Shown piece after piece: positions 42,709 through 61,195 of a stretch of 64,000 nucleotides of DNA. Position 1 is the first letter of the stretch; each line of letters begins with the position of its first letter. Position numbers and translations under genes: made by a program. The notes beneath the pieces were generated by a model, which ran no database searches, was not told where the DNA came from, and was given only the letters and a program-made list of their open reading frames with translations. This stretch comes from Candidatus Eiseniibacteriota bacterium (lineage in GTDB: Bacteria > Orphanbacterota > Orphanbacteria > Orphanbacterales > Orphanbacteraceae): NCBI GenBank assembly GCA_029262235.1, contig JAJCZU010000002.1, positions 1,142,927 through 1,206,926 on the forward strand, written 5' to 3'.

Positions 42709-42737
42709 AGCGGGGCCTTCCGTAAGGGGAGAAGGAG

Positions 42738-43434: not shown

Positions 43435-43441
43435 AAGAAGG

Positions 43442-43454
43442 CGTCACAGTGACG
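43442..43454. promoter_or_regulatory. 13-bp palindrome CGTCACaGTGACG followed by a GTGAC direct repeat (candidate operator)
   Basis: Perfect 6-1-6 inverted repeat immediately downstream of the candidate -10 element. Confidence 0.25.
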
Positions 43455-43576
43455 TGACGACCCTCCCCCGCATCATCCTCAGCAGGAGCATACGTACAAC
43501 GAACCTTGCTATCGAGCGGGACCGAACGAAATCGACGGTTCCATACATCCCTGAAGGACACCACGAGGGAAACTCG

Positions 43577-45078: not shown

Positions 45079-45126
45079 GCACACTGTGTTTACGCAATCG
45101 ATAACGAGCGGGGCACCGGGAACGGC

Positions 45127-46554: not shown

Positions 46555-46566
46555 CGGACGGAATCG

Positions 46567-47343: not shown

Positions 47344-48598
47344 GCCGGACGCCCGCTTGCACTCGACCGATCCGTACACCGCACCTTTCGCGCCCGATCC
47401 GGACGTGGATCAATTCTACCGGGAGAAAGTGCGCGCGGTCGTCGACATCGTGCTCGGCGCATGGAACGGCGAAGCCCCCACTGTGGTGCTGAGCGGAAGT
47501 CTCGCACTCGGCGATGGGCGCGCTACACGCACTCCCGAAGGCCCCGGGCCCGCAAGCGACGTCGACCTCTATCTCGTAACAGAAGAAGCCGCGCACGCCG
47601 CCGCACTCACCGACCTTCCCCGCATCCACGGCGCGCTCCGACGTTCCGACCGCACGTCTGATCTCACGGTCGATCTCGGCGTCACGACTGCCGCGCGCCT
47701 CGCGGCCGCGCCCGTTTCGATCGCAAACCGAACGCTGGCCGAGCACGGACGTGTTCTGACCGGTGATCGGGAGGTGCTCGATGCGATGCGGTCCGTACGG
47801 GGAAGACCGATCCCGCCGGCGGACGGACTGCTGCTGCTGCAGAACCGCACGGTGGAAGCGCTCGTGCCTGTCGCTCTCTTCGGGGACTCATCGATGCACG
47901 ACGCTTTCTGGTATCTTCACGCGAAGACGCTGCGCGATATCGGACTCTCGGCGATTGTCGCCGCCGGGCGTTTCGCTCCGCGACCCGGCGACCGTGCGGA
48001 ACTCGTGCGGGCGACATGGGAAGAGAGTGAGCTCGGCAAGGTCGTTCCCGGTTTTCCCGCACGCTATGAAGAGTCCTCGGGCTCGTCTTCGCGCGGAAGC
48101 GCGCCTTCGCGCGGAAGCGGAAGCAGCGTGCGCGGCGAAACGGCGCTTCGGCGCGCATGGGAAGATCTCGGCACCACTCTGTTCGCCGTGGCGCGATGGG
48201 AGCACCGTACGATCGACCCGCATGCGAGCGACGATCCGAACAGCTGGGTGCGTGCCGGGAGCGGACCGCTTCGGAGGCGGGTCAAATCGTGGCTCCCGTT
48301 TGCCACAGGAGACCCCGGCGCTTTTGCGAAAGCGCTGACCCGGGGATTTCCGGGAACACCGATGCAGGGCGCCTACGTGGCGGCTTCGTGTCTCATGGCA
48401 TCCGCGGGGACCGCATGGGGAGGCGGCGCGCCCGATCAAGGCACGATGATTGCAGGAGCCCGGGCCATCTGCCCGTTCACCGTCAAGGATCGCCGCCCGG
48501 ACGCCGCATGGTGGGAACTCCGGAACGCGATCTGCGAGTACTGGAATGAAACGGTCCTCGGCGGAAGCCGCACGATCGAGAAGGGAGGTCCGCGATGA
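47309..48598 (+). CDS. hypothetical protein, possible nucleotidyltransferase-fold domain
   Basis: 429 aa; weak GS...DxD signature (LSGSLALGDG...SDVDLYLV); internal Ser/Gly-rich linker; start uncertain because it overlaps the upstream gene. Confidence 0.4.
   Translation: MSYRNSCIANSKPDARLHSTDPYTAPFAPDPDVDQFYREKVRAVVDIVLGAWNGEAPTVVLSGSLALGDGRATRTPEGPGPASDVDLYLVTEEAAHAAALTDLPRIHGALRRSDRTSDLTVDLGVTTAARLAAAPVSIANRTLAEHGRVLTGDREVLDAMRSVRGRPIPPADGLLLLQNRTVEALVPVALFGDSSMHDAFWYLHAKTLRDIGLSAIVAAGRFAPRPGDRAELVRATWEESELGKVVPGFPARYEESSGSSSRGSAPSRGSGSSVRGETALRRAWEDLGTTLFAVARWEHRTIDPHASDDPNSWVRAGSGPLRRRVKSWLPFATGDPGAFAKALTRGFPGTPMQGAYVAASCLMASAGTAWGGGAPDQGTMIAGARAICPFTVKDRRPDAAWWELRNAICEYWNETVLGGSRTIEKGGPR
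48087..48119. repeat. imperfect 18-bp tandem direct repeat (cttcgcgcggaagcg core x2) inside the coding sequence
   Basis: Read directly; it encodes the SSRGSAPSRGSGS low-complexity linker. Confidence 0.6.
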
Positions 48599-49749
48599 AG
48601 CGTGCCGTGCTGGCCGTTCTGATCGACGCCTTCGGCTATGACCTGCTCGATCGTCATCCGTTCATGCCGGAACTTGCAGAGCGCAGGCCGCTTGCAACGG
48701 TGGCCGGTTTCAGTTCATCCGCGATCCCGTCGCTCCTGACCGGCAAATGGCCGAACGAGCACGGGCGCTGGTTCCTGTACGGAAAAGCGGGCGAAACGAC
48801 GCCGTTCAGCAACGCGCGTCTCTACGCATGGGCGGAGAATCTGCCGAAGATCGGCATCCGCGCGCGCCAGCGTTATGAACGCGAGTTCGCCCGGACTTCC
48901 GGCATCAACGAGTATTACCATCTCTATAATATACCCTTGAAATATCTCCCCTCGTTCGACCTTCCCGGCAAGCGATCGATCTACGAACCGGGCGCGATCG
49001 AAGGCGTACCGAATCTTTTCGACAAGCTCGTCGAACACGAGATCCCCTACGCGTCCTGGAACTGGAGCACGCCCGAAGAGAAAAACTTCACGGAACTGCA
49101 CGCGACGATCCGCGAGGCGAAGCTTCCGTTCTATTTCCTCTACACGGCCGTGCTCGACGGCGTGATGCACGCGACGGGAACGGATTCGCCGGAAACCCGG
49201 GCGGTCATCGAGAGCAATCAGAAGTCGATTCGCGAGGCGGTGCGCATCGCGGAGGAATGCTACGACGAAGTCTCCCTCTACATTTTCTCGGATCACGGCA
49301 TGGTGAACGTCGAGACCGTGATCGATCTGATGAATGACGTGCGGGCGCTCCCTTTCGTCGAAGGGAAGGACTATCTGCCGTTCTACGACTCGACATACGC
49401 GCGCTTCTGGTTCCGGAACGAGCGCGCGGAGAAAGCGATCCGCGCACTGCTCGACTCCGCGGCGGGGGGCAGGCTGCTGTCACGCGGGGAACTCGAGCGC
49501 CTGCATGTATGGTTCCCGGACCGCGAATACGGCGACGCGATCTTTCTGACGGACGCCGGAACGGTCATCGCGCCGTCGTTCATGGGGAACGAACCGCCCC
49601 GCGCGATGCACGGATACCATCCTGAAGACGCCGGTTCGAACGGGATGCTGGTCGGGAGCCGGTCCATCCCCGCGGGAGTCACCTCGATCATGGATATGGC
49701 GCTCTTTCTCGAGCAGGAAGCGCGGCGCGCCCACGGGACCGGGTCGTGA
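48595..49749 (+). CDS. alkaline-phosphatase-superfamily enzyme (type I phosphodiesterase / nucleotide pyrophosphatase-like)
   Basis: Metal-ligand style motifs LIDAFGYD, SSSAIPSLLTG, FSDHGM, HGYH; 384 aa; ATGA overlap with the upstream gene. Confidence 0.7.
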   Translation: MKRAVLAVLIDAFGYDLLDRHPFMPELAERRPLATVAGFSSSAIPSLLTGKWPNEHGRWFLYGKAGETTPFSNARLYAWAENLPKIGIRARQRYEREFARTSGINEYYHLYNIPLKYLPSFDLPGKRSIYEPGAIEGVPNLFDKLVEHEIPYASWNWSTPEEKNFTELHATIREAKLPFYFLYTAVLDGVMHATGTDSPETRAVIESNQKSIREAVRIAEECYDEVSLYIFSDHGMVNVETVIDLMNDVRALPFVEGKDYLPFYDSTYARFWFRNERAEKAIRALLDSAAGGRLLSRGELERLHVWFPDREYGDAIFLTDAGTVIAPSFMGNEPPRAMHGYHPEDAGSNGMLVGSRSIPAGVTSIMDMALFLEQEARRAHGTGS

Positions 49750-51227
49750 GCACACTCGCGCGCGCCTCGCGGGCAGCCCCTTTCAGCCTCATCGCAAAAG
49801 CCGTCCGTTTCATCCTTTCGTTCGCGACCAGTATTCTGGTCGTGCGCATGCTTCCCGAGAACGAATACGGTGTACTTACGATCGTCCGCACGATCGCGTC
49901 GCTCGCGGGCGCGCTGATCGGCTTCGGAATGGGAAACGCAATCCTGCGCTTCCTGCCCGAACGCGAAGCGCAGGGAGAGGGGACCCGCGCGCTCCTGAAC
50001 TGGGCCGCGCTTCTGCCCATGGCCGCCTGGGCGGTCGTCACCGGCTGCGCGTTTCTGCTTCGCGACTCGATCGACGCCCTCTATGGAACGCCGATCGGAA
50101 CCCCGCTGCTCGCCGGCATCGCCCTGCTTTCCGGGAATCTCCTCTACACGATCCTGATGAACACATGGACGGCAACGTTTCGAACGCGGGAACTCGCGCT
50201 CGTGCAGTCCGTGCTCAGCTTCGCGATCCTGGCCGCTTCGTATGGCGCGATCCGCATGGGCTGGGGCGTGATCGGCGTCCTCGCCGCGAGCTCGCTCCCG
50301 TATCTGCTGGCCGCGATCGTGCGCGGCCCGGCCGTATGGCTGTCGCTCAAGCACGGGGCGGCGAGGCTGCCGGCCGGGCCGCTGCTTGCATACGGCATCC
50401 CCGTGGCGTTCGTCGACATTCTGAACCAGATCACGTGGCGCCAGTCCGAAACGATTCTGCTCGGGCATTACACGTCGGCCGCCGCGGCCGGCACGTTCGA
50501 TATCGCGTACAAGCTCCCGCAGCTGCTCGTCGAATTCGTGCCCGACACGATCTGGCCGCTCGTTCTGGCGGCATTCGCCGAGGTGTACACGCGGGACCGC
50601 TCCCGTCTCGACGAGATGATCCGGCGGTACTACCAGGTGCTTTTTCTGCTCGTGCTCCCCGTCAGCGTGTTCGGTGTGCTCTACGGGGACCTTCTGATTC
50701 AGACGGCCTACGGCGCGGAACGGGCCGAAGCCGGGCAGTACGCGCGGATCTTCTTTTTCATCTTTCATCTCACGTTCTGGGGCACGCCGCTCTCGATGGC
50801 CCTCTATCTTCTGAAGAAGACGAACGTGAATCTCTGGCTCGCGCTGGTGGCCGCCACGGTGAACGTCGGCCTCGACTTCGTGATGATTCCGAAGTACGGG
50901 CTGCGCGGGGCGGTGCCTCCGGTCGCGATCGCGGTCGCGCTGACGGCGATTCTCCGCGGAATCACGCTCCGGCGCATGCACGGGACGCTTCCCATACCAT
51001 GGCGATTTCTCGGCCGGGCCTATCTGGCAACGGCCCCGCTCGCGATTTTTTACCCGATTCGGGGCATGGGATCGCCTCAGACGGCTCTTTGTGCGATCAG
51101 TGCTTTGTCTCTTTTGCTGTTGCCCTTTACAATAAGGTTCGCGCGACTGCTCGGCGACGAGGAGCGCGAGTATCTCAGGCAGTCGGGCATTCCCGGACGC
51201 GAAATTCTCCTCCGGTGGTTCCGTTGA
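49746..51227 (+). CDS. polysaccharide flippase (Wzx, MOP superfamily)
   Basis: 493 aa polytopic membrane protein with Wzx-like N-terminus; GTG start overlapping the upstream stop. Confidence 0.75.
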   Translation: MSTLARASRAAPFSLIAKAVRFILSFATSILVVRMLPENEYGVLTIVRTIASLAGALIGFGMGNAILRFLPEREAQGEGTRALLNWAALLPMAAWAVVTGCAFLLRDSIDALYGTPIGTPLLAGIALLSGNLLYTILMNTWTATFRTRELALVQSVLSFAILAASYGAIRMGWGVIGVLAASSLPYLLAAIVRGPAVWLSLKHGAARLPAGPLLAYGIPVAFVDILNQITWRQSETILLGHYTSAAAAGTFDIAYKLPQLLVEFVPDTIWPLVLAAFAEVYTRDRSRLDEMIRRYYQVLFLLVLPVSVFGVLYGDLLIQTAYGAERAEAGQYARIFFFIFHLTFWGTPLSMALYLLKKTNVNLWLALVAATVNVGLDFVMIPKYGLRGAVPPVAIAVALTAILRGITLRRMHGTLPIPWRFLGRAYLATAPLAIFYPIRGMGSPQTALCAISALSLLLLPFTIRFARLLGDEEREYLRQSGIPGREILLRWFR

Positions 51228-51263
51228 TGCGGACACGGGGGTTCACGAACTACGGAGATCAGG

Positions 51264-51938
51264 ATGTATCGAGAGCGAACGGTATCGGCAGTGATTCCCT
51301 GCTACAACGAGGAGGAGGGGATCGCGCACGTCATCGAGTCGATGCCCGACTTCGTGGACGAAGTCGTCGTCGTCGACAACAATTCGACGGACCGCACAGC
51401 GGAAATTGCGACGAAGCTCGGCGCGCGGGTGATTCACGAAAAGCGCAAGGGTTACGGCGCGGCCTACAAAGCGGGGATTCCCGCGGCGAAGTCGGACATC
51501 ATCGTGACGATGGACGGCGACGGGACGTACCCGGTCGAGGAGATCAAGGATCTGATCGACTTCATGTTCGAGAAAGATCTCGACTTCGTTTCGGGTTGCC
51601 GGTTCCCGCTCAAGAACGCCGAAGCGATGCACTCCCTGAACAAGCTCGGCAACACGATCCTGACGATCGAAATGCTGATTCTGTATGCGCGCGGCATTCG
51701 CGATTCGCAGTCCGGCATGTGGTGCTTCAAGTCCGCAGTGTATCCGAAGTTCAAGATGACGTCGGACGGTATGCCGTTCTCCGAGGAGATCAAGATCGAA
51801 GCGATTCTCGCGAAGGACGTCAAGTTCGACGAGTATCACATTACGTATCATCAGCGAATCGGCGAAGTGAAGCTCAACATGTGGGCCGACGGCTTCGAGA
51901 ATCTCTTTTTCCTCGCAAAGAAGCGATTCTTCCGGTAG
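51264..51938 (+). CDS. family 2 glycosyltransferase (DPM1/GtrB-like polyprenyl-phosphate glycosyltransferase)
   Basis: VIPCYNEE start, DxD-type MDGDG motif; 224 aa with no obvious TM segment. Confidence 0.8.
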   Translation: MYRERTVSAVIPCYNEEEGIAHVIESMPDFVDEVVVVDNNSTDRTAEIATKLGARVIHEKRKGYGAAYKAGIPAAKSDIIVTMDGDGTYPVEEIKDLIDFMFEKDLDFVSGCRFPLKNAEAMHSLNKLGNTILTIEMLILYARGIRDSQSGMWCFKSAVYPKFKMTSDGMPFSEEIKIEAILAKDVKFDEYHITYHQRIGEVKLNMWADGFENLFFLAKKRFFR

Positions 51939-51983
51939 AGGGCGCCGCTGCGCGACACGCGCCGCGCGGGGGGGACATGTAGC

Positions 51984-54452
51984 ATGTTGTCCGTGCGCAT
52001 CGCCCGTACTCTCGTTCTCGTCACGCTGTTCGCGATCGCGCGCAGCCCTTTCTTTACGAGCCTCGCTCTTCCCCCGTTCGTTACGATGTCCGCCGCGCTT
52101 CTCGCCATCGTGCTCCCGGGCATCTGGCTCGCGCAGGCGGTGCGCGGAATCGACGATTCGCCCGCCGCCGCAATCTGCTGGGGATTCGCCTTCTCTCTCG
52201 CGCTCGTGTCAGCCGGTTCGATCGCGTTTCATCTTACGGGAGCGTTCGGCCTCGGCGCGCTTCTCGCCCTTGTCATGGTATGCGGGTACGCGATCGCTCT
52301 GCTCGTGCCGCCCCGGGCAGAATCAACGCCGCTTCTTGCCCGCGCCGAAACCTGGCTGCTCGTCGCAACCGTGGCGATCACGGCACTCGTGTCCTCACCG
52401 CGAACCGGCTACCTGACCGACGCGTACGATCATCTCGGCACGGTGCGCTGGATGACGATCGAGGATCGCGCCTATCCGGTCGAGTCGTTTCACGCGGACC
52501 GCGCGGCGGCGGGCACGCTCGATCCACGCAAGGGGACGTATCACACGACTTTCGCGCTCGCGAGCGACCTGACGGGCGTCGATCCGGTCGACGGCTACCG
52601 GACGTTCTGGGCGTTCACGCTGCTGCTCGCATTTGCTTCCGTGCTCACCGCGGCGCGCGCCTTTCTGACCGGAGAACGCGCCGCCTGGATCGCGTTCATT
52701 CTGTTCGTGGTGCTGCATCGCGGCGGCCCCGCGGGAGAGTGGTTCTCGACGGCGGGCTACCCGGGCTCGGCCGGGCTCTGGCTCTACCTGCTTTTCGTTT
52801 CGGTGATCGTACGCGGGCGCATGGCGCGCATGGCGCGCATGCCGCGCATGGCGTTGATCGCGCTCGGATTCGCGACGCTCGGCGTACATCTTTTCTACGG
52901 ACTGCTGGCCGGCCTCGCATTCCTGTATCTGTTCGCGGGGCTCTTGATCTTCCGCCGCGCGGAGGGCGCAGGCCTGGTGCTGCGCGGGGCGATCGCGTTC
53001 GGCGCGGGCGCATTGCCCGTCGCGATCTTTCGCTATTTCGCCACGTACGATCCCGCCAACCCGATCCATCTGCACCGTCAGGCCGTGATCGAACTGACCG
53101 ACCGGCTGGCGGTACTCGACGCGACCCCCGTTCTGCAGGCGTTCGGCATCGGCGGTCTGATCGCGCTGTTCTTTCTGCCGTTTCTCGACTGGCGCGGCAG
53201 AGACGAACAGGGGGGGCGGGGCGACCTGTTTCTGGGAACCTCGCTTGCCGGCACGTTCCTGATCGTATGGAATCCGATCGTGTTTCCGGCTCTCGAACCA
53301 CACCTCGGTTATCTCATGCGCCGGATTCCGTACGCGGTTCCGTGGGCCTTCGTCTTCGCGGCTGTCATGACCCGGACCATGGGGCCCGTCGGAACACCGG
53401 GCAGGACATCGATCTCCCGGGGCCGGCGCTCGATCGCGTGGGCGGCTCTGGCCGTCGTGGTCATTACCGCAGGCTGGGACGCGACACGCAGGCGTCCGCC
53501 CCGCGCAAAACCCGCGGCGGGCGTCGAAGAGATCGCGCAGCAGGTCGTGGCGGACGCGGCGAAACTGCTCCCGCCCGGCACGACGGTCCTGACCGATCCC
53601 GTAACCGGATACGTGCTCTTCGGGCGCACCTCGCTCCGGCCGGTTGCCATTCTCGACCAGCACTCGTCGCCGAACGATCCGCTGGCCGCACGCCGCCTCT
53701 CCGAAAGCCAGCGCGCGCTTCACCCCGCAACGAGCGAAGCCGAACGCCTGGACGTCATGAACCAGTACGAAACCCGTCACATTCTGCTCGTGACGGGGTA
53801 TCCCCGCGATTTTCAGACATACAACGCGTTCTATTCGCCCGGAATGGCGTCCACGATGGACGCGGTTCTCACCGGCCGGACGACGTTCGACACGATCATG
53901 CGCACCGAACAGGCCGTGCTCTACCGTCTGGACGGCCGTGAATCGGTCGTGCCGCCGGGTGACCGTCGCCCCTGGGCCACAGCGGGCTCGCTCACGCGCC
54001 CCGGGGGCCCCGCGGACCTCCCGGGGGGCATCAGGCTCACGGGAGCGCGTCTCGGGACGTCTGAGGGGCGTCCGGGAGATCTCGTGTGGCTCGAAAGTGA
54101 GTGGACGCTCCCTCATGAGGATGCCGGGGCCGTGCCGATGCTTCTTTATATAACGGGAGTCCGGCTGGAGGAGGGCTCCGATCCTGTGAGAACGCGTGCG
54201 GAGAGGCCCTGGAAGATCTTCTCCCTCGGCGGCCGTGAATTTCCGTATCTTCTCTGGAAGAAGAAGGAGCGGATCGCGTATGACGCCCCGCTTCGGATTC
54301 CGGAGCGGATCGCGCCTGGCCGGTACGAAGTGCAGGTCACGACGGATCGGCATCCGTTTTTCGCCGTGCGCAGACTTGAGAGGAACGGCCTTCGCTGGAG
54401 CGCCGCCCGCACGGGTTGGACGGCCGTTGATACAGTCGAGGTGATGCCTTGA
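51984..54452 (+). CDS. large polytopic membrane protein, unknown family (GT-C-like candidate), paralogue 1
   Basis: 822 aa; multiple N-terminal TM helices plus a C-terminal soluble domain; shares sequence blocks with the 55944..58451 product. Confidence 0.6.
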   Translation: MLSVRIARTLVLVTLFAIARSPFFTSLALPPFVTMSAALLAIVLPGIWLAQAVRGIDDSPAAAICWGFAFSLALVSAGSIAFHLTGAFGLGALLALVMVCGYAIALLVPPRAESTPLLARAETWLLVATVAITALVSSPRTGYLTDAYDHLGTVRWMTIEDRAYPVESFHADRAAAGTLDPRKGTYHTTFALASDLTGVDPVDGYRTFWAFTLLLAFASVLTAARAFLTGERAAWIAFILFVVLHRGGPAGEWFSTAGYPGSAGLWLYLLFVSVIVRGRMARMARMPRMALIALGFATLGVHLFYGLLAGLAFLYLFAGLLIFRRAEGAGLVLRGAIAFGAGALPVAIFRYFATYDPANPIHLHRQAVIELTDRLAVLDATPVLQAFGIGGLIALFFLPFLDWRGRDEQGGRGDLFLGTSLAGTFLIVWNPIVFPALEPHLGYLMRRIPYAVPWAFVFAAVMTRTMGPVGTPGRTSISRGRRSIAWAALAVVVITAGWDATRRRPPRAKPAAGVEEIAQQVVADAAKLLPPGTTVLTDPVTGYVLFGRTSLRPVAILDQHSSPNDPLAARRLSESQRALHPATSEAERLDVMNQYETRHILLVTGYPRDFQTYNAFYSPGMASTMDAVLTGRTTFDTIMRTEQAVLYRLDGRESVVPPGDRRPWATAGSLTRPGGPADLPGGIRLTGARLGTSEGRPGDLVWLESEWTLPHEDAGAVPMLLYITGVRLEEGSDPVRTRAERPWKIFSLGGREFPYLLWKKKERIAYDAPLRIPERIAPGRYEVQVTTDRHPFFAVRRLERNGLRWSAARTGWTAVDTVEVMP
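52817..52852. repeat. tandem repeat, 4 copies of a 9-bp unit gcgcatggc (third copy gcgcatgcc)
   Basis: Read directly; in frame, encoding RMARMARMPRMA within paralogue 1. Confidence 0.8.
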
Positions 54453-55930
54453 AACGACAATCGACGATAGGAAAAGTGCTGAGCCCGCAACTCATCTGGG
54501 CGCTCTTCACCATTGCGCTCACGATGGTGCTCGGCTACGTGCTCGCGGGACAGATCATCTCGCCGAATCAGCGCATCATCAAAGCCTCGGTCGGTCTCGC
54601 GCTTCTCACGACGGCGTTTCTGCTTCCGAACCGCTTCGCCGTGGCGTTCATGCTTTTCGCGATCCCGTTTCCGCAGAACACGACCATTGGATCGACAACG
54701 GTCATCTTCGCGTTCATCATCTTTTCGTTCTGGCTCCTCAAGATGGCTCTCGGGTACGAAAAACCTCCGATCCTCACAGGTCTCGAGCCGTGGCTCGTCG
54801 CCATCGTGCTTCTCTACTTCATCTCGTTCGTCATGGTGCAACCGAACGAAATGAAGCAGGCGGTTGCGGGCTTCCAGACTTTCATTTCCGCTGTCTTCAT
54901 CTTTTATCTCGTCACGAACATGGTGCGAACCGAACGCGACATTCAATTCGTTCTGAACGCGCTGATCATTTCGTTTTCCGTTGTGGCCACGATCGCGATG
55001 ATCGAACTCTGGCTGCCGGGCGCGGCCGACAAGCTCGGGTTCCTGAAGGTTTCCACGCGCACGGTGGGGAAGGCGTCGGGCGTGCGCGTCGGCTCCGTAT
55101 TCGGCGACTACGAAATGTTCGCGGAGTACTGCGCGATCTTCATACCGATTCTTCTGATTCGCGTGATCGGCGAGAAAGTATTCCTGCGCCAGTTCATCTG
55201 GATGCCGCTTCTGGGCGTCGCCATCATGCTTCTGATCGGCACCGCTACGCGCGGCGCGTTTCTGAGCATGCTCATCGGCCTGACTTACCTGGTCTGGATT
55301 TCGTGGCGCATCATGGACTTTCAGAAGTTTCTGCCGCTCGTTATCGTCGCGGCCGTCGCGTTCTACGTATTCGCCATTACGCTCGACCAGTACACCGAAT
55401 CGGCGTCGCTGTTCGGGCGGCTCGGAAGAACGAAGCTCGTCGACGGAATGCCGGACACGAGGGCCCGCGTCTGGAACGAAGCGTGGATTCGCATTCAGGA
55501 CTCGCCCTGGATCGGCCATGGGCCTTACTACTTCACCGGCGTCGACGAGCGAAACGTGCATTCGAATTACCCGCACAGCCTGTTTCTCTTTCTGGCGCAC
55601 ATGATCGGCATCCCGGGCGCCGTGCTTTTTTACGGCTTTCTGCTCGCCATTTTCAGGCGGGGCTACATGGCGGCCCGGGCTTTCGCAACGGAGCGAGGTC
55701 AGTTCGCCTATACCGTGGTGATTCTATCGAGCTGCATGGTTATTTTTCTGATCGACGAATTCAAAATCTCGTTCCTGCGGTACGATCAGACGCAGCAGTT
55801 CACGTGGACGATGTTCGCGCTCGTTCTCGCCGCGAGCCGCGTGGCCATGATGCGCGTGGAAGAACGCAAGAACCAAAACCTGCCAGCGACTCTGCGCAGG
55901 AACGCGACCCGCTCCGCGCGCATCGCCTGA
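54449..55930 (+). CDS. O-antigen polymerase / ligase family protein (Wzy-like)
   Basis: 493 aa polytopic protein with a Wzy_C-like block (GTATRGAFLSM...WIGHGPYYF...HSNYPH); TTG start overlapping the upstream stop. Confidence 0.7.
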   Translation: MKRQSTIGKVLSPQLIWALFTIALTMVLGYVLAGQIISPNQRIIKASVGLALLTTAFLLPNRFAVAFMLFAIPFPQNTTIGSTTVIFAFIIFSFWLLKMALGYEKPPILTGLEPWLVAIVLLYFISFVMVQPNEMKQAVAGFQTFISAVFIFYLVTNMVRTERDIQFVLNALIISFSVVATIAMIELWLPGAADKLGFLKVSTRTVGKASGVRVGSVFGDYEMFAEYCAIFIPILLIRVIGEKVFLRQFIWMPLLGVAIMLLIGTATRGAFLSMLIGLTYLVWISWRIMDFQKFLPLVIVAAVAFYVFAITLDQYTESASLFGRLGRTKLVDGMPDTRARVWNEAWIRIQDSPWIGHGPYYFTGVDERNVHSNYPHSLFLFLAHMIGIPGAVLFYGFLLAIFRRGYMAARAFATERGQFAYTVVILSSCMVIFLIDEFKISFLRYDQTQQFTWTMFALVLAASRVAMMRVEERKNQNLPATLRRNATRSARIA

Positions 55931-55943
55931 TCCCTGAGGACCC

Positions 55944-58451
55944 ATGCTCCTTGCACGCCTTCTGAGCCTTCTCGGTATCGTCGGAACGCTCGGGCTCTTT
56001 CTGCCCGGCCGCTTTCGTGTGTTCGCGATTCTGGCTGCGGCCTCCGTTCTGCCGGGGCACGCGCTGCTCGTTCGCACGGCATGGGGGAGGCAGCAGAGCC
56101 CGTGGATGCGCGCCACCGCGTCGATTGCCACGTCATGGGCGCTCTTCTTCGTGGCCATCGTCATTGCGGAGCGGCTTCAGATCGGCACGGGCTGGTTCTC
56201 CATCCCGCTGCTCGCCGCCACGCTTCTCGGCTCGTTCGTGGCCTGGCTCCCGCCGAGGATTCCGGTTGCGGACGGAGGGAGAGAGACCGGCGCGCTGATC
56301 GTGCTACTGACGGTTCTCGCTGCGCTCGCGCTGGCGCGCGGCGCCTCGGTCACACTCGCGACGGATGCTCTCGATCACATCGCTTATCTCAAGGAGATCG
56401 TGCACACGGGCGATCCGTTTCCGCTGACGTCTTACTACGACCCGTCCACCGACACGGCGTACGACATCCGCAAGGGATTTTTTCAGCCGGTGCAGGCGGC
56501 CGTACTCGTTGCCACCGGATGCGATGCGGTGGAAGGGTGGCACGCCTTTCCCGCGGTGGTGCTGCTTCTCAGCGGCCTCGCGTTCTTCGCACTCGCGCGG
56601 GAAACTCTCGGGGACGCGCGGGCGGGCGTGATCGCAACCGCGGTCTATCTCCTCGGGTTCGACGCGGGAATCGCGGGTGTCTGGTTCGGACGCGCGTGCA
56701 CGCCGTTTCTGTTTTCGGCGCCGCTTGTCTGGGGAATTCTGCTTCTTGCGTATCGAGCGGGGCGCGGGGAGAAAACGCCGTTCGTTCTTCCGTTCGTCTT
56801 CGGCTTCGCCATCATGGGCGCGCACATCTTCGCCGCGGTCGTCGCCGGACTCCTTGCCGCGCTCTACGCGTTTCTGCACGTACTCCGTTGGAAGGGGCGC
56901 GCGCTTCGTTCTTTCAGCGCCGCTCTCGGACTCATTGCCGCGGGCATGCTGCCGCTCGGACTCTGGCGGTTCGCGACGAGCTATCCGCCGGTCGACCCGG
57001 TGCACACGCATCTCCAGGGAGTCGTTACCGTAAGCGAGGGACTGTTCTTCTCGACACCCGTTCTCGCGGTCGCGCGGCTCGGACTCTTTTCGCTCCTCGC
57101 GATCCCGGCAACGATTCTGCTCGGCAGACGCTTATGGAAAGAGGAAGGCGTATTCTTCGCGGGGGCCGTTACGATCGGCCCGCTGCTGCTCATTTTCAAC
57201 CCGCTTCTTGTCCCCGTGCTCGCCAGGATCGCGGGGTATCTCGTCGCCCGTCTCGCCTGGTTCGGCGGTTACGCCCTCGTGTGGGGAGCGCTCCTCGGTC
57301 ACTGGTTCCGCAGCCGTGCTCCGGGTGACCGGAACACGGCACTCGCCAGGGGCGCCGGGGTCGCGGCGCTGCTCGTGTTTCTCGGCACGCTGAGCCTCGG
57401 CGATCGTCAGGAGGACTGGCGCAAGCTGCAATGGATGCGGACGGCACCGCGCGCGGAATGGCACGTCGAGACCTGGCCCGATCTGATCGGGCTTCTGAAC
57501 ACGCTGCCCGCACGTTCGCGGATCGCGTCCGATCCGCTGACCTCGTATATGATTCCGGCGTTCACGTCGCACAAGGTGACCACGCTGCTCGCGCAGCATT
57601 CATCACCGGCGGATCCTGTTGCGCCCGCGCGTCTGCAGGACGCCGTACGCATTCTTTCGCCGTTTACGAGCGCGCGCGAGACGTGGGACGCGCTCCGGCG
57701 CCGGGACGCGGATTATCTGGTGCTGAATTTCCGTTTCGAGAAGCCCGTTGTGCTCTTCTACAGCGGAATCGATCCCGCGCTCCACGAAGCGACCCTCGCG
57801 AAGTTCCGGCGTGACCCGGACCGCTATGAGGAGATCGGGGCGATGGACCGCTGTCATCTTTTCCGGATCGTGAAAAGCGCGCCTGCGCCGGAGCCCGGCG
57901 TCCCGGACGGGATGGCGGCGATGACCCCGGAAGTGGCCCTGTTGCCCCCGGATGCCACGCCGGTCGCTCCGAACGCGAGCCCCGCGGGCATACAGCTGCT
58001 GGCGGCGTCGCTCGGCACGAAGACCGTGTCGCCGGGAGACACGATTCCGCTTACCCTTTACTGGACACGCGGGGCGGGCAAGGTCGGCCCGATCCCGGAA
58101 AGGCTCTATCTGCGCCTCGACAGCCGGGAGCCCGGGGCGATCGATCGCGATTCTCCGATCGGCAAGCTGACCCGCAAATGGAGACAGACACGCGAAGGGA
58201 AGCTGTTCCGGGCGCGCACGAGCAGAAACCTCGTGCGCGGAAGCCTGCCGGCGTTTCTCTGGCATCCCGGAGCGATTCTCGTCGATTCGATCGCGATTCA
58301 GGTCCCTGCCCGGATGGCGCCCGGCCGGTACGCCGTGGAGGCCATGCTCCGCCCCCATGCGCACATTCAGGTCTACCACTGGACCGACTTCCTTCGCGAA
58401 GAGGATTCGTTCAGCGGTATCACCGTAGGAGAACTGGAGATACGGCCGTAA
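55944..58451 (+). CDS. large polytopic membrane protein, unknown family (GT-C-like candidate), paralogue 2
   Basis: 835 aa; same architecture and shared blocks with the 51984..54452 product (DAxDH...RKG loop, xDPxxPxHxHL, QHSSPxDP, PGRY). Confidence 0.6.
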   Translation: MLLARLLSLLGIVGTLGLFLPGRFRVFAILAAASVLPGHALLVRTAWGRQQSPWMRATASIATSWALFFVAIVIAERLQIGTGWFSIPLLAATLLGSFVAWLPPRIPVADGGRETGALIVLLTVLAALALARGASVTLATDALDHIAYLKEIVHTGDPFPLTSYYDPSTDTAYDIRKGFFQPVQAAVLVATGCDAVEGWHAFPAVVLLLSGLAFFALARETLGDARAGVIATAVYLLGFDAGIAGVWFGRACTPFLFSAPLVWGILLLAYRAGRGEKTPFVLPFVFGFAIMGAHIFAAVVAGLLAALYAFLHVLRWKGRALRSFSAALGLIAAGMLPLGLWRFATSYPPVDPVHTHLQGVVTVSEGLFFSTPVLAVARLGLFSLLAIPATILLGRRLWKEEGVFFAGAVTIGPLLLIFNPLLVPVLARIAGYLVARLAWFGGYALVWGALLGHWFRSRAPGDRNTALARGAGVAALLVFLGTLSLGDRQEDWRKLQWMRTAPRAEWHVETWPDLIGLLNTLPARSRIASDPLTSYMIPAFTSHKVTTLLAQHSSPADPVAPARLQDAVRILSPFTSARETWDALRRRDADYLVLNFRFEKPVVLFYSGIDPALHEATLAKFRRDPDRYEEIGAMDRCHLFRIVKSAPAPEPGVPDGMAAMTPEVALLPPDATPVAPNASPAGIQLLAASLGTKTVSPGDTIPLTLYWTRGAGKVGPIPERLYLRLDSREPGAIDRDSPIGKLTRKWRQTREGKLFRARTSRNLVRGSLPAFLWHPGAILVDSIAIQVPARMAPGRYAVEAMLRPHAHIQVYHWTDFLREEDSFSGITVGELEIRP

Positions 58452-58578
58452 AGACTCTCCAGAAATCGGGAATCCCGTCCGAAAAGAGGAACAATAGAGA
58501 GGGTTTACGCGAATCGCCACGCGTCATACACTTTTACACGACCTGTGCCATCGACACGCTCGCATTCGAAGGAGAGAA

Positions 58579-59676
58579 ATGAATATTCCGTTCGTCGACC
58601 TCAAGTCGCAGTACGCAGGCATTCGTGATGAAGTTGCCGAAGCTGTTCAGGGGATTCTCGACAATACCGCGTTCATCGGCGGCAAGCCTGTGAAAGACTT
58701 CGAGGAGGCGTTCGCCGCCATGGAAGGCGCGCGCTTCGCCGTGGGAACGAGTTCCGGTACGTCTTCGCTTCACATCGCCCTCGAAGCGGCCGGGGTCGGC
58801 CCCGGCGACGAAGTCATCACCGTGCCGAACACGTTCATCGCGACGACCGAGTCCATCAGCCAGTGCGGCGCCAAGTTCCGGTTCGTCGATATCGAGCCGC
58901 TGCGCCACAACATGGATCCGGCGAAGATCGAAGCGGCCATCACGCCGAAGACGAAAGCCATCGTGCCGGTTCACCTGTACGGCCAGCCGGCCGACATGGC
59001 CCCGATCATGGCGATCGCGAAGAAGCACGACCTGATCGTGATCGCCGACTGCGCGCAGGGTCACTGCGCGACGTACGACGGAAAGAAGATGGGCGAGCTC
59101 TGCCACGCTTCGACATACAGTTTTTACCCGGGCAAGAACCTCGGCGCGTACGGCGACGCCGGCGCACTCGTCACGAACGACGAGGCGCTCGCAAAGAAAT
59201 GCGCGCAGCTGATCGACCACGGCCGCTCGGGCAAGTACGAGCACAATCTCGAAGGGTACAATTACCGGCTCGACGGGATACAGGCGGCGATCCTGCAGGT
59301 GAAGCTCAAGTACATCGAGGGCTGGACCGAAGCGCGGCGCGCGGCGGCCTCCTATTATCGGGAACGCCTGACTTCGCTTCCGATCGAAGTGAATCAGGAA
59401 GCGAAGGGTTCGCGCCACGTCTACCACCTCTTCTCTGTGTTTCACGAAGACAGAGACCGACTGCGGGAGGGACTCGAGGCAAAAGGCATTGCCGCCGGAA
59501 TCCACTATCCGATTCCGCTGCATCTGCAGGTGGCGTATGCCGACCGTGGATACGCGAAGGGAGATTTCCCGATCGCCGAGAAGAGCGCGGCCACCCAGCT
59601 CTCTCTGCCCATTTTTCCGGAACTGACGAAGGAACAGATCGACCACGTTGTCGATACGCTCGGGTCGCTGCTGTAG
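58579..59676 (+). CDS. DegT/DnrJ/EryC1/StrS-family PLP-dependent sugar aminotransferase
   Basis: 365 aa; typical start MNIPFVDLKSQY; AAGIHYPIPLHLQ block; AGGAGAG before the ATG. Confidence 0.9.
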   Translation: MNIPFVDLKSQYAGIRDEVAEAVQGILDNTAFIGGKPVKDFEEAFAAMEGARFAVGTSSGTSSLHIALEAAGVGPGDEVITVPNTFIATTESISQCGAKFRFVDIEPLRHNMDPAKIEAAITPKTKAIVPVHLYGQPADMAPIMAIAKKHDLIVIADCAQGHCATYDGKKMGELCHASTYSFYPGKNLGAYGDAGALVTNDEALAKKCAQLIDHGRSGKYEHNLEGYNYRLDGIQAAILQVKLKYIEGWTEARRAAASYYRERLTSLPIEVNQEAKGSRHVYHLFSVFHEDRDRLREGLEAKGIAAGIHYPIPLHLQVAYADRGYAKGDFPIAEKSAATQLSLPIFPELTKEQIDHVVDTLGSLL

Positions 59677-59707
59677 CACGCCCGGCCTGATCCCTTTCGC
59701 GGAGACC

Positions 59708-61195
59708 ATGTTGGATTCCAAACTCGCATCGTTACGGAGTCGCCGTTCGCGGAACCGCGCACTCCTGCTTGTCCTGAGCGACATGATTCTCGTCGCGGCG
59801 AGCTTCCTGTTTGCGTACTGGTTCCGGCTGCAGTCCGGGTTCTTTCTGCGAACCATTCCACTCGAGTCGTACCATTTCCTCTCGCTCGGGGCCGTCTGCC
59901 TCGTCTGGGTGATGATCATGAGCGCGCACGGGCTGTACCGGCGCGAAGTGTATCTCTCCGTGTTCGATCAGATGGTCGGCATATTCAATTCCGTGAACCT
60001 GGGCGTACTGCTCGTCCTGTTTCTCGCGTTCGTTACGAAGTTCGACTACTTCCTCGAGCGACGTCTCGTGCTGCTCGTCGCCTGGGTCATGGCGATCACG
60101 CTGCTTACAGGTACGCGCGTTTTTCTCTATCGCGGCCTTTTTCTGACGCGCATCGCGAAGGATCCGTTCCGGTGTCGCATTCTGATCGTGGGCGCGGGCG
60201 AAACAGGCACGCAGTTTCTGCAGCTCGTCCGTCACACGAAAGACCATGTGTACGACGTGGTGGGGTTTCTCGACGACGACCCCGCGAAACACGGACAGAC
60301 GGTCGAAGACATTCGCATTCTCGGGAAAGTGGACGATATCGAAGACATCGTGGCCCGCCTCAATATCGAACGCGTGTTCGTGGCCGTGCAGAAAATCGGG
60401 CAGGAGGGGCTGATCGATCTGATCTCCCGCTGCATGCGGTCGAAGGTCCCCGTCAAAATGATTTCCGATCAGTTCCACATGTTTGCCGCGGACGGCGCGA
60501 TCGAACGAATCGACGGCGTACCGACGCTCGCCGTGCGCGATACGCCGATGACGGGTTTCCATTTTCTGATGAAGCGGGCGTTCGACGCCACGACCGCGGG
60601 CGTGCTGCTGATCGTGCTCGCCCCGCTCTTTCTCGCGCTGGCGATCATGATCAAGACAGTAGGCGGGCGCGGCCCGGTCTTCTTCAGGCAGACCCGCGCG
60701 GGGCAGGGCGGAAAGCCGTTCAACTTCTACAAATTCCGTTCGATGCGGACCGACATGGACGACGCGGTCCATCGCGACTACGCGAAGAACTTCGTTTCAG
60801 GAGAAGCGAAAGCGACTTCGGATTCCGAAGCGGACACGCCTGTCTATAAGATGAAACGCGATCCGCGCGTGACGGGAATCGGATGGATTCTGCGCAAGAC
60901 GTCGCTCGACGAACTCCCGCAGCTCTTCAACGTTGTGAAGGGGGAAATGAGCCTCGTCGGGCCGCGACCGCCGATTCTGTACGAACTGCAGTACTACAAA
61001 GAGTGGCACCGGCGGCGCCTCGACGCGAAACCCGGCCTCACCGGTCTCTGGCAGGTGAGCGGGCGGAGCAGCGTGCCGTTCAACGAAATGGTGCTTCTCG
61101 ACCTCTATTACATCGATCACTGGTCCTTGAAGCTGGATTTTGAGATCATGTTGCGCACCGTCCCGGTTATACTGTTCGGGAAGGGCGCTTACTAA
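59708..61195 (+). CDS. undecaprenyl-phosphate sugar phosphotransferase, long form (WbaP/WcaJ-like)
   Basis: About 495 aa; N-terminal TM bundle, central Rossmann-like region, C-terminal bacterial sugar transferase domain (PRP...[10 protein letters not shown]). Confidence 0.85.

What the first reader, a model, noticed from the sequence alone, without database searches (positions are those of the whole stretch)
51264..58451. GT2 plus two paralogous ~820-aa polytopic membrane proteins bracketing the Wzy gene
A short DPM1/GtrB-like GT2 (51264..51938) is followed by an 822-aa membrane protein; after the Wzy-like gene a second 835-aa protein follows. The two large proteins share blocks (early-loop DAYDH / DALDH with a downstream RKG; TYDPANPIHLH vs SYPPVDPVHTHL; LDQHSSPNDP vs LAQHSSPADP; PGRYEVQV vs PGRYAVEA), so they are paralogues. 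A polyprenyl-phosphate GT2 next to a large GT-C-type membrane transferase is the logic of periplasmic-face glycan modification (Gtr, Arn, CsbB/YfhO-type systems). Here it is duplicated and wrapped around the polymerase, and I cannot assign the large proteins to a named family by eye.
Basis: partly seen in the sequence, partly recalled or inferred. Interest (0 to 1): 0.7.

Follow-up and report, generated by a model that had tools for sequence, protein, structure and literature searches.

The report
Paired GT-C glycosyltransferases flanking Wzy
Two ancient duplicate membrane enzymes with a lipid-sugar glycosyltransferase (GT-C) fold flank the polymerase gene of a polysaccharide locus in an uncultured Eisenbacteria-type bacterium. 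They most likely add extra sugars to the polysaccharide outside the cytoplasm, which is a known strategy carried out here by an undescribed enzyme family.

Summary
The region holds four ORFs:
- GT2, 51264-51938
- protein A, 822 aa, 51984-54452
- Wzy_C protein, 54449-55930
- protein B, 835 aa, 55944-58451

A and B are paralogues (27% identity over 703 aa, E=5e-50). Neither hits Pfam, NCBIfam or any PDB sequence.

Each protein has four parts:
- about 15 TM helices, including a 4-TM N-terminal extension
- a periplasmic loop carrying invariant D146/D149/H150 and D180/R182
- an α/β periplasmic domain with invariant DPxTxY and QHSSPxD
- a CBM-like β-sandwich

The family has 324 cluster representatives at E<=1e-30. 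It is almost confined to Candidatus Eisenbacteria and is a remote relative of DUF6541.

In three different gene arrangements it sits beside a TM-less polyprenyl-phosphate-sugar-synthase-like GT2 and a flippase-type protein. One arrangement includes a GacJ-type DUF2304 protein.

Best reading: a Gtr/Gac-type multicomponent periplasmic glycosylation module embedded in a Wzx/Wzy exopolysaccharide operon, with two GT-Cs serving two acceptor sites or steps. The fold is shown. Donor, acceptor and division of labour are inferred.

The parts
49746..51227 (+). MOP/Wzx-family flippase (493 aa, ~12 TM) immediately upstream of the GT2. It is a candidate flippase for the repeat unit and/or the lipid-monophosphate sugar donor.
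   Evidence: Polysacc_synt_3 2.4e-20 and Polysacc_synt 1.3e-14. HfsF/MOP flippase matches in NCBIfam. A 33%-identical homologue lies directly after the GT-C in the three-gene module of L075.
51264..51938 (+). TM-less GT2 (224 aa), polyprenyl-phosphate hexose synthase-like (DPM1/AglJ/PpgS type). Proposed maker of the lipid-linked sugar donor.
   Evidence: PF00535 1.6e-27. NCBIfam top three: AglJ 8e-40, Dol-P-hexose transferase 6e-37, PpgS 3e-23, all below the equivalog cut-offs. Best PDB sequence match is Pyrococcus DPMS 5mlz at 3.3e-12, with MDGDGTYP~MDADLQHP and DSQSGMW~DPVSGFF aligned. No TM helix. A 57%-identical orthologue lies next to the distant family member P0014.
51984..54452 (+). Protein A, 822 aa. 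GT-C-fold glycosyltransferase with ~15 TM helices (res 1-501), a periplasmic α/β domain (~514-650) and a C-terminal β-sandwich (~677-820).
52416..52433 (+). A: TDAYDH motif (T145-H150) at the start of the first long periplasmic loop, after TM5. D146 is invariant across the family and is the proposed catalytic Asp.
   Evidence: D146 and D149 invariant in 14 sequences. D146 invariant and D149/H150 at >=90% in 40 sequences. The loop follows the helix at 116-136 and precedes loop helix 147-160 in the model. The only hhalign pairing places it on E. coli ArnT PDETRY after TM1; this is not significant, E=0.3.
52521..52535 (+). A: DPRKG motif (D180-G184) in the same periplasmic loop. Candidate phosphate or sugar-binding residues.
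   Evidence: D180 and R182 invariant, K183 and G184 at >=90% in 40 sequences.
53058..53081 (+). A: NPIHLHRQ (N359-Q366) in a low-confidence, probably mobile periplasmic loop between TM helices.
   Evidence: P360 and H362 invariant, H364 and Q366 at >=90% in 14 sequences. pLDDT <50 for residues 357-379.
53523..53933 (+). A: periplasmic α/β domain (res ~514-650) carrying invariant DPVTGY (538-543; nt 53595-53612) and QHSSPND (559-565; nt 53658-53678).
54012..54443 (+). A: C-terminal β-sandwich (res ~677-820), CBM-like. Proposed binder of the acceptor glycan.
54449..55930 (+). Wzy_C-family polytopic membrane protein (493 aa from a TTG start). Presumed repeat-unit polymerase. Its start overlaps A's stop by 4 nt.
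   Evidence: PF04932 7.9e-17. About 12 TM helices with a 71-aa loop. The 4-nt overlap with the upstream GT-C is conserved in L001-L003.
55944..58451 (+). Protein B, 835 aa. Paralogous GT-C-fold glycosyltransferase with the same domain layout. Motifs: TDALDH (res 140-145; nt 56361-56378), DIRKG (174-178; nt 56463-56477), DPLTSY (530-535; nt 57531-57548), QHSSPAD (551-557; nt 57594-57614), β-sandwich ~683-833.

Best explanation
A and B are two anciently duplicated members of an uncharacterised GT-C-fold glycosyltransferase family that is almost restricted to Eisenbacteria. Together with the upstream genes they form a multicomponent periplasmic glycosylation module inside a Wzx/Wzy-dependent exopolysaccharide operon.

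Proposed steps:
1. The TM-less GT2 transfers a hexose or HexNAc from a nucleotide sugar to undecaprenyl phosphate at the cytoplasmic face (inferred).
2. The lipid-monophosphate sugar is flipped, possibly by the adjacent MOP flippase as in GacK-type systems (inferred).
3. A and B each transfer that sugar at the periplasmic face onto the flipped repeat unit or the growing polymer made by Wzy. They would act at two different positions or in two successive steps (inferred). The loop Asp146 with D149/H150 and D180/R182 would be used for catalysis and phosphate binding. The α/β domain and the CBM-like β-sandwich would hold the glycan acceptor.

Shown here: the paralogy, the GT-C fold, the periplasm-facing invariant residues present in both copies, and the conserved gene linkage.

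Not shown here: the donor, the acceptor, and the division of labour between A and B.
For: Paralogy: E=5e-50.

Active-site-like residues: D146, D180, R182, H302, D538 and D565 are invariant in 40 diverse members and are present in both A and B. Hydropathy, the positive-inside pattern and the model's helix layout place the membrane-domain ones (D146, D180, R182, H302) at the periplasmic face; D538 and D565 lie in the C-terminal periplasmic domain.

GT2: it resembles polyprenyl-phosphate sugar synthases best.

Linkage recurs in three arrangements:
- MOP-GT2-A-Wzy-B, complete in L001-L003, L007, L008 and L010 and contig-truncated in L004-L006 and L009; the orthologues in these loci are down to 33% identical to A.
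- GT2 (57% identical) - GT-C (30% identical) - MOP flippase (33% identical) in L075-L077.
- MOP, PpgS-like GT2, a DUF2304 protein (confirmed by Pfam in L037, detected in few other loci), a flippase-like LPG_synthase_TM protein and the GT-C, with the DegT/LPG_synthase_TM signature in about 30 single-copy loci.

DUF2304 is the family of GacJ and Rv3632, the activators of GacI and PpgS (bioRxiv 10.1101/180810).

Precedents: a Wzx-type flippase plus GT-C in the Gac four-component system (PMC9574508). A MATE-family flippase plus a GT-C with a C-terminal CBM in GT136 (PMC11127046).

The β-sandwich resembles the O-antigen-binding domains of Wzt.
Against: - No biochemical data exist for any family member.
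- No GtrA-type small flippase is present anywhere in the 64-kb window. The only MOP flippase may be needed for the repeat unit itself.
- The GT2 scores far below every NCBIfam equivalog cut-off, and a soluble-acceptor GT2 (GmaR) is its second-best PDB match.
- The best structural matches, including a match to an AglB C-terminal domain, are oligosaccharyltransferases, which use diphosphate-linked oligosaccharides.
- Invariant residues in the soluble domain are more typical of OSTs than of ArnT- or Gtr-type enzymes.
- One GT2 serving two GT-Cs is compatible with other schemes, such as the Wps-type polymerase plus ligase.
Confidence: 0.55

Rival explanations
1. Wps-like dual-chain assembly. The GT2 primes a lipid-monophosphate-linked oligosaccharide that the cytoplasmic GT4s extend and the MOP flippase flips. 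One GT-C paralogue then polymerises it and the other ligates it en bloc to the Wzy-made polymer or another acceptor. This is the scheme of WpsI (GT-C polymerase) and WpsJ (GT-C ligase) in Lactococcus.
For: The locus holds three potential initiators: two phosphoglycosyl transferases (43454-44218 and 59648-61195) plus the GT2. It also holds at least one GT4 in the window and two in the orthologous loci, one MOP flippase, a PCP and two GT-Cs. The Wps precedent combines a GT2, a Wzx-type flippase, a GT-C polymerase and a GT-C ligase (PMC9574508). CBM-bearing GT-Cs such as Emb and AftD are chain-building enzymes (PMC11127046).
Against: Most Eisenbacteria loci carry a single family member, and L075 has only GT2, GT-C and flippase. 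So the basic unit works without a second GT-C. A canonical Wzy polymerase is already present. Nothing distinguishes a polymerase from a ligase between A and B; both keep the same invariant residues.
Confidence: 0.15
2. Oligosaccharyltransferase-like enzymes. A and/or B transfer an Und-PP-linked oligo- or polysaccharide en bloc to a protein or other non-glycan acceptor. The GT2 would be an ordinary cytoplasmic repeat-unit glycosyltransferase.
Against: A and B contain no WWD motif. No STT3 Pfam hit at E<=1. The family is repeatedly linked to Pren-P-sugar-synthase-like GT2s, and in at least one locus to a GacJ-like DUF2304 protein. The C-terminal β-sandwich resembles glycan-binding modules.
Confidence: 0.12
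3. A and B work only as an obligate heterodimer, like Pmt1-Pmt2, possibly in a complex with Wzy. They would carry out a single modification rather than two.
For: A, Wzy and B are always adjacent in that order in this clade. The 4-nt A/Wzy overlap is conserved and the gap or overlap before B is short. Pmt1 and Pmt2 are among the structural matches.
Against: Single-copy relatives predominate elsewhere. In the neighbour-joining tree A and B are not sister clades. Both retain all invariant residues, so neither looks like a degenerate subunit. No complex prediction could be run.
Confidence: 0.1
4. Non-catalytic membrane scaffolds or transporters that merely share the GT-C architecture.
Against: Acidic, basic and His residues are invariant at the positions expected for a GT-C active site in 40 diverse members. 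The family is linked to lipid-sugar synthase genes.
Confidence: 0.03

Closest known systems
Gac four-component system of Streptococcus pyogenes (GacI GT2, GacJ DUF2304 activator, GacK Wzx-type flippase, GacL GT-C) and the mycobacterial PpgS/Rv3632/Rv3779 system
   Same: A GT2 of the polyprenyl-phosphate sugar synthase type, a 12-TM MOP/Wzx-type flippase and a polytopic GT-C are encoded together in a polysaccharide locus. In the single-copy relatives' locus L037 the GT2 is PpgS-like and is followed by a DUF2304 protein, as with GacJ and Rv3632.
   Different: The window's cassette has no DUF2304 gene. It has two GT-C paralogues and they flank wzy. The GT-Cs share no detectable sequence family with GacL: A and B hit no Pfam family at all. 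The host is a candidate phylum and the pathway includes a Wza-type export protein, a PCP and a BY-kinase.
Three-component pentofuranose system and GT136 (Citrobacter youngae ORF12; PMC11127046)
   Same: A GT-C enzyme with a proposed catalytic Asp in the first periplasmic loop and a C-terminal β-rich CBM that binds the acceptor polysaccharide. It is paired with a lipid-phosphate sugar synthase and a MATE-family flippase.
   Different: GT136 has 11 TM helices and no α/β domain between the membrane part and the CBM. Its donor synthase is a phosphoribosyltransferase-type enzyme, not a GT2. It occurs as a single copy.
Gtr (GtrA/GtrB/GtrC-type) O-antigen glucosylation, ArnC/ArnT/ArnEF, and CsbB/YfhO/GtcA
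   Same: Overall logic: a GT2 makes Und-P-sugar, a flippase moves it, and a GT-C transfers it at the outer face (established knowledge; summarised in PMC9574508).
   Different: No GtrA- or ArnE/F-type small flippase is present in the window. The GT2 lacks the C-terminal TM helices. hhalign of the family profile against E. coli ArnT is not significant (E=0.3). No PMT_2 or YfhO Pfam hit.
STT3/AglB/PglB oligosaccharyltransferases (GT66)
   Same: Best overall structural matches. A globular domain follows the last TM helix, matches an AglB C-terminal domain and carries invariant residues.
   Different: No WWDYG motif and no STT3 Pfam hit. Four extra N-terminal TM helices. An additional CBM-like domain. 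The genomic partners point to monophosphate-linked donors.
Pfam DUF6541 (PF20176)
   Same: 8 of 40 family members reach this model (best 1.9e-13). Typical DUF6541 proteins (P0167, P0168, ~670 aa) align with the family profile across the TM domain and the α/β domain and keep D146, H150 and the DPxTxY-like motif.
   Different: A and B themselves give no hit at E<=1. DUF6541 proteins lack the C-terminal β-sandwich, D149 and the DPRKG motif. DUF6541 has no described function, and no paper mentions it.
Lactococcus Wps system (WpsA/B, WpsG, WpsI, WpsJ)
   Same: One GT2 primer, a Wzx-type flippase, a Wzz-like protein and two different GT-C enzymes in one locus.
   Different: In Wps the GT-Cs act on C55-P-oligosaccharides as polymerase and ligase, and no separate Wzy_C protein is described for that locus. 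Here a Wzy_C protein sits between the two GT-Cs, and they are paralogues of each other.

Membership tests
GT-C fold glycosyltransferase superfamily | Polytopic membrane domain structurally superimposable on solved GT-C enzymes | tested here: met
GT-C fold glycosyltransferase superfamily | Conserved acidic residue at the start of a long extracytoplasmic loop with short helices, after the core's first TM helix | tested here: met
   D146 (A) and D141 (B) are invariant in 40 sequences. They lie at the start of a 73-aa loop with helices 147-160, 171-176 and 185-197. The loop follows TM5, not TM1. Weak TM-domain alignments to PMT_2 and PTPS-related proteins are offset by about 110 residues, which fits a 4-TM N-terminal extension.
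GT-C fold glycosyltransferase superfamily | Uses a lipid-phosphate-linked sugar donor | not testable with these tools
   Context only: Pren-P-sugar-synthase-like GT2s lie beside family members in three arrangements.
Multicomponent (three/four-component) transmembrane glycosylation system | GT-A/GT2 enzyme that makes polyprenyl-monophosphate sugar | tested here: inconclusive
   Best NCBIfam and PDB matches are AglJ, Dol-P-hexose transferase, PpgS and PfDPMS, with the DXD and D-x-x-SG-[FM] motifs aligned. All scores are below the equivalog cut-offs and activity is untested.
Multicomponent (three/four-component) transmembrane glycosylation system | Dedicated flippase for the lipid-linked monosaccharide (GtrA family, or Wzx/MATE type) | tested here: inconclusive
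   The window has no ORF of 70-220 aa with >=3 TM helices. A MOP flippase lies directly upstream of the GT2 and travels with GT2 and GT-C in L075. It could equally be the repeat-unit flippase.
Multicomponent (three/four-component) transmembrane glycosylation system | GT-C enzyme encoded with the GT2 | tested here: met
   GT2 to A gap is 45 nt. Adjacency is conserved in every cassette locus that covers the junction (L001-L005, L007-L010) and in L075-L077.
Pfam DUF6541 (PF20176) | Score at or above the gathering threshold (29 bits) | tested here: not met
   A and B have no hit at E<=1. Relatives P0004 and P0005 reach 32.6 and 31.9 bits, and 8 of 40 family members match. The family is therefore a remote sister or outlier group.
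STT3/AglB/PglB oligosaccharyltransferases | WWDYG motif in the C-terminal domain, and a Pfam STT3 match | tested here: not met
   A and B contain no WWD or WW. No STT3 hit at E<=1. Structural similarity alone is high.
ArnT / PMT_2 (PF13231), YfhO (PF09586) | Sequence-profile match | tested here: not met
   No Pfam hit at E<=1. hhalign of the family profile against E. coli ArnT gives probability 0.2 and E=0.3. Its only pairing puts TDAYDH..R.M on ArnT PDETRYAEISREM.
Wzx/Wzy-dependent EPS locus (context) | PGT, Wzx, Wzy, OPX (Wza), PCP and BY-kinase all present | tested here: met
   Bac_transf x2, Poly_export/SLBB, an EpsF-like PCP, a TIGR01007 tyrosine autokinase, a MOP flippase and Wzy_C.

The most novel reading that the evidence does not exclude
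The family is an OST-related branch of GT-C enzymes. Its post-membrane core domain would have exchanged the peptide-binding WWDYG/DK motifs for invariant DPxTxY/QHSSPxD motifs and gained a CBM, turning an OST-like machine into a glycan-to-glycan transferase. In this clade the two paralogues would be translationally and physically coupled to Wzy, so that branching or en-bloc ligation is built into the polymerisation step: a 'polymerase-flanking' GT-C complex not described for any Wzy pathway.
Probability: 0.2. Interest if true: 0.65.

Novelty: new variant of a known kind. Interest (0 to 1): 0.45.

Why it matters
It would add an undescribed GT-C family, a candidate new CAZy family, with hundreds of members. 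The family appears to be a signature of the uncultured phylum Eisenbacteria. It also links the orphan Pfam family DUF6541 to a concrete fold and a likely role.

The paired arrangement around wzy, with conserved translational coupling, offers a tractable case for one question: whether periplasmic side-chain addition is physically coupled to Wzy polymerisation.

The strictly conserved motifs give direct mutagenesis targets: D146/D149/H150, D180/R182, H302, DPxTxY and QHSSPxD.

The overall strategy (GT2, flippase, GT-C) is well established, so a specialist would find this useful rather than very surprising.

Tried and rejected
- Sequence searches of A, B and the 14-sequence family profile against PDB chains found nothing meaningful.
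- Pfam and NCBIfam gave no hits for A or B.
- The afdb50 fold library was not available.
It worked with the A-type subalignment A3.
- The source contig of P0001 is not on record, so the window's own record and organism could not be retrieved.
- A literature search for DUF6541 and one for Eisenbacteria with exopolysaccharide returned nothing.
- A hydrophobic-moment scan for an amphipathic membrane anchor in the GT2 was uninformative.
- The promoter and terminator scan of 42500-60000 was not above shuffled expectation. It found no intergenic terminator inside the block.
- hhalign of the family profile against E. coli ArnT was not significant.
- I first read the weak profile hits to DUF2723, PMT_2 and PTPS_related proteins as sequence evidence for GT-C clan membership. 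Domain-level inspection showed they come mainly from the shared C-terminal β-sandwich, not the catalytic domain. I do not use them for that claim.
- HGT as the cause of the higher GC of A and B (0.66-0.67 against ~0.60 for wzy) is considered unlikely, because the whole cassette is syntenic in divergent genomes. I attribute the GC difference to amino-acid composition, but I did not test this.


Full report
**Observation.** The four ORFs are present exactly as described, all on the + strand:
- a 224-aa GT2 (51264-51938)
- an 822-aa protein, here called A (51984-54452)
- a 493-aa Wzy_C protein (54449-55930), with a TTG start that overlaps A's stop by 4 nt
- an 835-aa protein, here called B (55944-58451)

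Pfam confirms the GT2 (PF00535, 1.6e-27) and the Wzy_C domain (7.9e-17). It finds nothing for A or B even at E<=1. NCBIfam also finds nothing for them.

BLASTP of A against B gives 27% identity over 703 residues, E=5e-50. The paralogy is therefore real and far beyond chance.

A simple hydropathy scan predicts no TM helix in the GT2 and 10-15 in A and B.

**Surroundings.** The block lies in one tightly packed, same-strand gene series. Gaps run from -46 to +48 nt, except for 127 nt after B. The series is a Wzx/Wzy-type exopolysaccharide locus:

| Gene | Coordinates | Assignment |
|---|---|---|
| Small phosphoglycosyl transferase | 43454-44218 | Bac_transf |
| Wza-type export protein | 44173-45078 | Poly_export/SLBB |
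| Chain-length determinant | 45127-46554 | EpsF-like PCP |
| BY tyrosine autokinase | 46567-47343 | TIGR01007, 1.5e-30 |
| Unknown 429-aa protein | 47309-48598 | no family hit |
| AlkP-like protein | 48595-49749 | PF01663 |
| MOP/Wzx flippase | 49746-51227 | Polysacc_synt_3 |
| GT2, A, Wzy, B | 51264-58451 | this finding |
| Aminotransferase | 58579-59676 | DegT |
| Large phosphoglycosyl transferase | 59648-61195 | WbaP-type |
| Oxidoreductase | 61210-62220 | GFO |
| Glycosyltransferase | 62221-63315 | GT4 |

No GtrA-like small polytopic ORF exists anywhere in the 64-kb window. Only A and B in the window belong to the family.

**Fold.** AlphaFold2 models built on a 14-sequence alignment are of usable quality: A has pLDDT 78.8 and pTM 0.84, B has 73.3 and 0.74.

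- For B: AglB 16.4, STT3B 15.8, ArnT 15.3, ALG12 15.1, AftA 14.9, AftD 13.9, PglB 11.4.

Foldseek agrees. All 20 hits at E<=1e-3 are GT-C enzymes, with modest TM-scores (0.23-0.52). No transporter or protease fold appears among the strong matches.

**Anatomy.** The model and hydropathy indicate about 15 TM helices with the N-terminus in and the C-terminus out.

The long loop carrying the invariant T-D146-A-Y-D149-H150 motif follows the fifth helix (116-136). It contains short helices at 147-160, 171-176 and 185-197, and a second invariant motif, D180-P-R182-K-G.

In canonical GT-C enzymes the proposed catalytic Asp follows the first TM helix (as stated in PMC11127046). This family therefore appears to carry four extra N-terminal helices. 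Weak TM-domain alignments to PMT_2 and PTPS-related proteins are offset by about 110 residues, which fits that reading.

The only pairing hhalign finds with E. coli ArnT puts TM5 plus TDAYDH..R.M on ArnT TM1 plus PDETRYAEISREM. It is not significant (E=0.3), so I treat it as a lead only.

Other conserved positions at the predicted periplasmic face:
- H302
- N/D-P-x-H362-x-H364-x-Q in a low-confidence, probably mobile loop (357-379)
- N430-P431

After the last TM helix comes an α/β domain (~514-650) with invariant D538-P-x-T-x-Y and Q559-H-S-S-P-x-D565. A β-sandwich follows (~677-820).

Across 40 diverse members the strictly invariant residues are D146, D180, R182, H302, P431, D538 and D565. 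Both A and B keep all of them, so neither looks like a pseudo-enzyme.

The β-sandwich resembles the O-antigen-binding domains of Wzt (6o14, 5hno). By sequence it recurs, sometimes in tandem, at the C-termini of unrelated GT-C proteins annotated DUF2723, PMT_2 or PTPS_related. It is therefore a mobile accessory domain, most plausibly a carbohydrate-binding module like those of GT136, Emb and AftD.

**Family and distribution.**
- The word-indexed search found only 9 and 5 relatives.
- The exhaustive profile search found 3214 cluster representatives at E<=1e-3 and 324 at E<=1e-30. Most are full-length proteins of 800-900 aa.
- A scan of species-representative genomes returned 70 loci. Most (47) are titled Candidatus Eisenbacteria (one Eiseniibacteriota); about 17 are unclassified MAGs, and the rest are Krumholzibacteriota (2), Gemmatimonadetes (2, one MAG), Binatia (1) and Verrucomicrobiia (1). 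The motif patterns used bias this sample.
- 8 of 40 members reach Pfam DUF6541 (best 1.9e-13).
- Typical DUF6541 proteins align over the TM and α/β domains. They lack the β-sandwich, D149 and the DPRKG motif.
- No paper mentions DUF6541.

In a neighbour-joining tree of 152 full-length members, the A-type sequences (12) and B-type sequences (8) are each monophyletic but are not sisters. Their common ancestor spans half of the tree. The duplication is therefore old.

**Conserved context.** The family occurs in three arrangements.

1. The full order MOP flippase, GT2, A, Wzy, B, DegT is conserved in loci L001-L010 (complete in L001-L003, L007, L008 and L010; the others are cut by contig ends). 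Their A orthologues are down to 33% identical to A. The 4-nt overlap between A and Wzy is also conserved.

2. A more distant member, P0014 (30% identical to B), sits in a compact module of GT2, GT-C and MOP flippase. That GT2 is 57% identical to the window's and the flippase is 33% identical. Unrelated genes follow.

3. About 30 single-copy loci share a DegT (opposite strand) and flippase-like LPG_synthase_TM signature upstream of the GT-C. Where the flank reaches far enough, an AlkP-like gene, a MOP flippase and a GT2 also precede it; in L037 this GT2's best NCBIfam match is PpgS and a DUF2304 protein follows it. A GT4 usually follows the GT-C.

DUF2304 is the family of GacJ and Rv3632, the small membrane activators of the polyprenyl-phosphate HexNAc synthases GacI and PpgS (bioRxiv 10.1101/180810). 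This third arrangement therefore reproduces the Gac-type four-component system: GT2, DUF2304 protein, Wzx-type flippase and GT-C (PMC9574508).

The window's GT2 is most similar to AglJ, Dol-P-hexose transferase and PpgS, and to Pyrococcus Dol-P-Man synthase among solved structures (3.3e-12). The DXD motif and the D-x-x-S-G-[FM] loop are aligned. All of these scores lie below the equivalog cut-offs.

**Mechanism proposed.**
- Shown: the GT-C fold, the periplasm-facing invariant residues in both copies, and the linkage to lipid-sugar-synthase-like GT2s and flippase-type proteins.
- Inferred:
  - The GT2 charges undecaprenyl phosphate with a hexose or HexNAc.
  - The lipid-monophosphate sugar is flipped, perhaps by the adjacent MOP flippase.
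  - A and B transfer it in the periplasm to the flipped repeat unit or the growing polymer, at two positions or in two successive steps.
  - The β-sandwich tethers the acceptor.
  - The A/Wzy overlap suggests co-translation and possibly a complex with the polymerase.
- I put this at about 0.55.

**Rivals.**
- A Wps-like scheme: the GT2 primes a monophosphate-linked oligosaccharide, and the two GT-Cs act as polymerase and ligase. This fits the three potential initiators and two GT-Cs. It is weakened by the single-copy and three-gene versions (0.15).
- OST-like en-bloc transfer: favoured by the best structural matches and by invariant residues in the soluble domain. It is disfavoured by the missing WWDYG motif and by the genomic partners (0.12).
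- An obligate A-B heterodimer (0.10).
- A non-catalytic role (0.03).

**Comparison with known systems and novelty.** In function this most resembles the Gtr, Gac and GT136 multicomponent periplasmic glycosylation systems.

In membership, A and B belong to the GT-C fold class. They fail the sequence tests for STT3, PMT_2/ArnT, YfhO and, strictly, DUF6541.

The distinctive features are:
- a sequence family with no described member
- a 4-TM N-terminal extension
- an α/β domain with invariant motifs plus a CBM-like module
- two old paralogues interleaved with, and translationally coupled to, wzy

I rate it a new variant of a known kind. It is useful for glycobiology and for annotating an uncultured phylum, but it is not a new principle.

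**Limits.**
- All structural statements rest on predicted models.
- No residue-level structural alignment, complex prediction or AFDB search was possible.
- The organism and source record of the window could not be retrieved.
- The closest loci are an 82%-identical 'Gemmatimonadetes' MAG and several Eisenbacteria MAGs.

Noticed in passing
window 47309-48598 (+): A 429-aa ORF lies between the BY-kinase and the AlkP-like gene. It has no Pfam or NCBIfam match and no predicted TM helix. It is conserved at the same position in all the cassette loci that cover that position (L001-L005, L007, L008, L010). Its function is unknown.
   Followed up: partly
window 48595-49749 (+); also L037:68-1036: An AlkP-superfamily protein (PF01663 Phosphodiest, 3e-13) has no evident signal peptide (by inspection of the N-terminus) and no predicted TM helix. 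It always lies directly upstream of the MOP flippase, in the A/B cassette and in those single-copy loci whose flank reaches that far. This conserved partnership is unexplained. It may act on a phospho-substituent or a nucleotide-sugar by-product.
   Followed up: partly
window 43454-44218 and 59648-61195 (+): The locus holds two polyprenyl glycosylphosphotransferases: one short (254 aa) and one full-length WbaP/WcaJ-type (515 aa). Together with the GT2 this makes three possible lipid-linked initiators in one locus.
   Followed up: no
L037:2613-4716 and about 30 other loci (L012-L074): Single-copy family members in other Eisenbacteria lie downstream of a conserved set: a PpgS-like GT2, a DUF2304 (GacJ-like) protein confirmed in L037, and a flippase-like LPG_synthase_TM protein, often with a MOP flippase as well. 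That gives two flippase-type proteins in one module.
   Followed up: partly
P0169, P0171, P0172, P0176 (Chloroflexota and metagenome proteins); window 54012-54443 and 57990-58442: The C-terminal β-sandwich of A and B is a mobile sequence domain. It also occurs, sometimes in 2-3 tandem copies, at the C-termini of DUF2723, PMT_2 and PTPS_related GT-C proteins. Shared pattern: W...P....YR.R....P..G..P..W..G..V.D....VP....PG.Y. Only one family member showed a weak Pfam NPCBM_assoc hit (0.0032).
   Followed up: partly
window 37394-42759 (-): MetH (1156 aa) and a fused homocysteine S-methyltransferase/MTHFR (628 aa) lie immediately upstream on the opposite strand. The fused S-methyltransferase/MTHFR gene and a dTDP-sugar isomerase gene flank the EPS locus in L001, L003 and L004 too, so the chromosomal position of the locus is conserved.
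   Followed up: no
window 52001-54000 and 56001-58000: Both GT-C genes have higher GC (0.668 and 0.663) and a strongly negative AT skew (-0.20 and -0.24). The wzy region between them has GC 0.596. This probably reflects amino-acid composition rather than foreign origin, given the conserved synteny.
   Followed up: no
window 55944-58451: A's exact sequence is in the protein collection (P0001, on a 1.23-Mb contig). B's exact sequence was not returned; the best hit is 80% identical. P0001 is also not on record in the contig index. In the source annotation B may have a different start or no gene call.
   Followed up: partly
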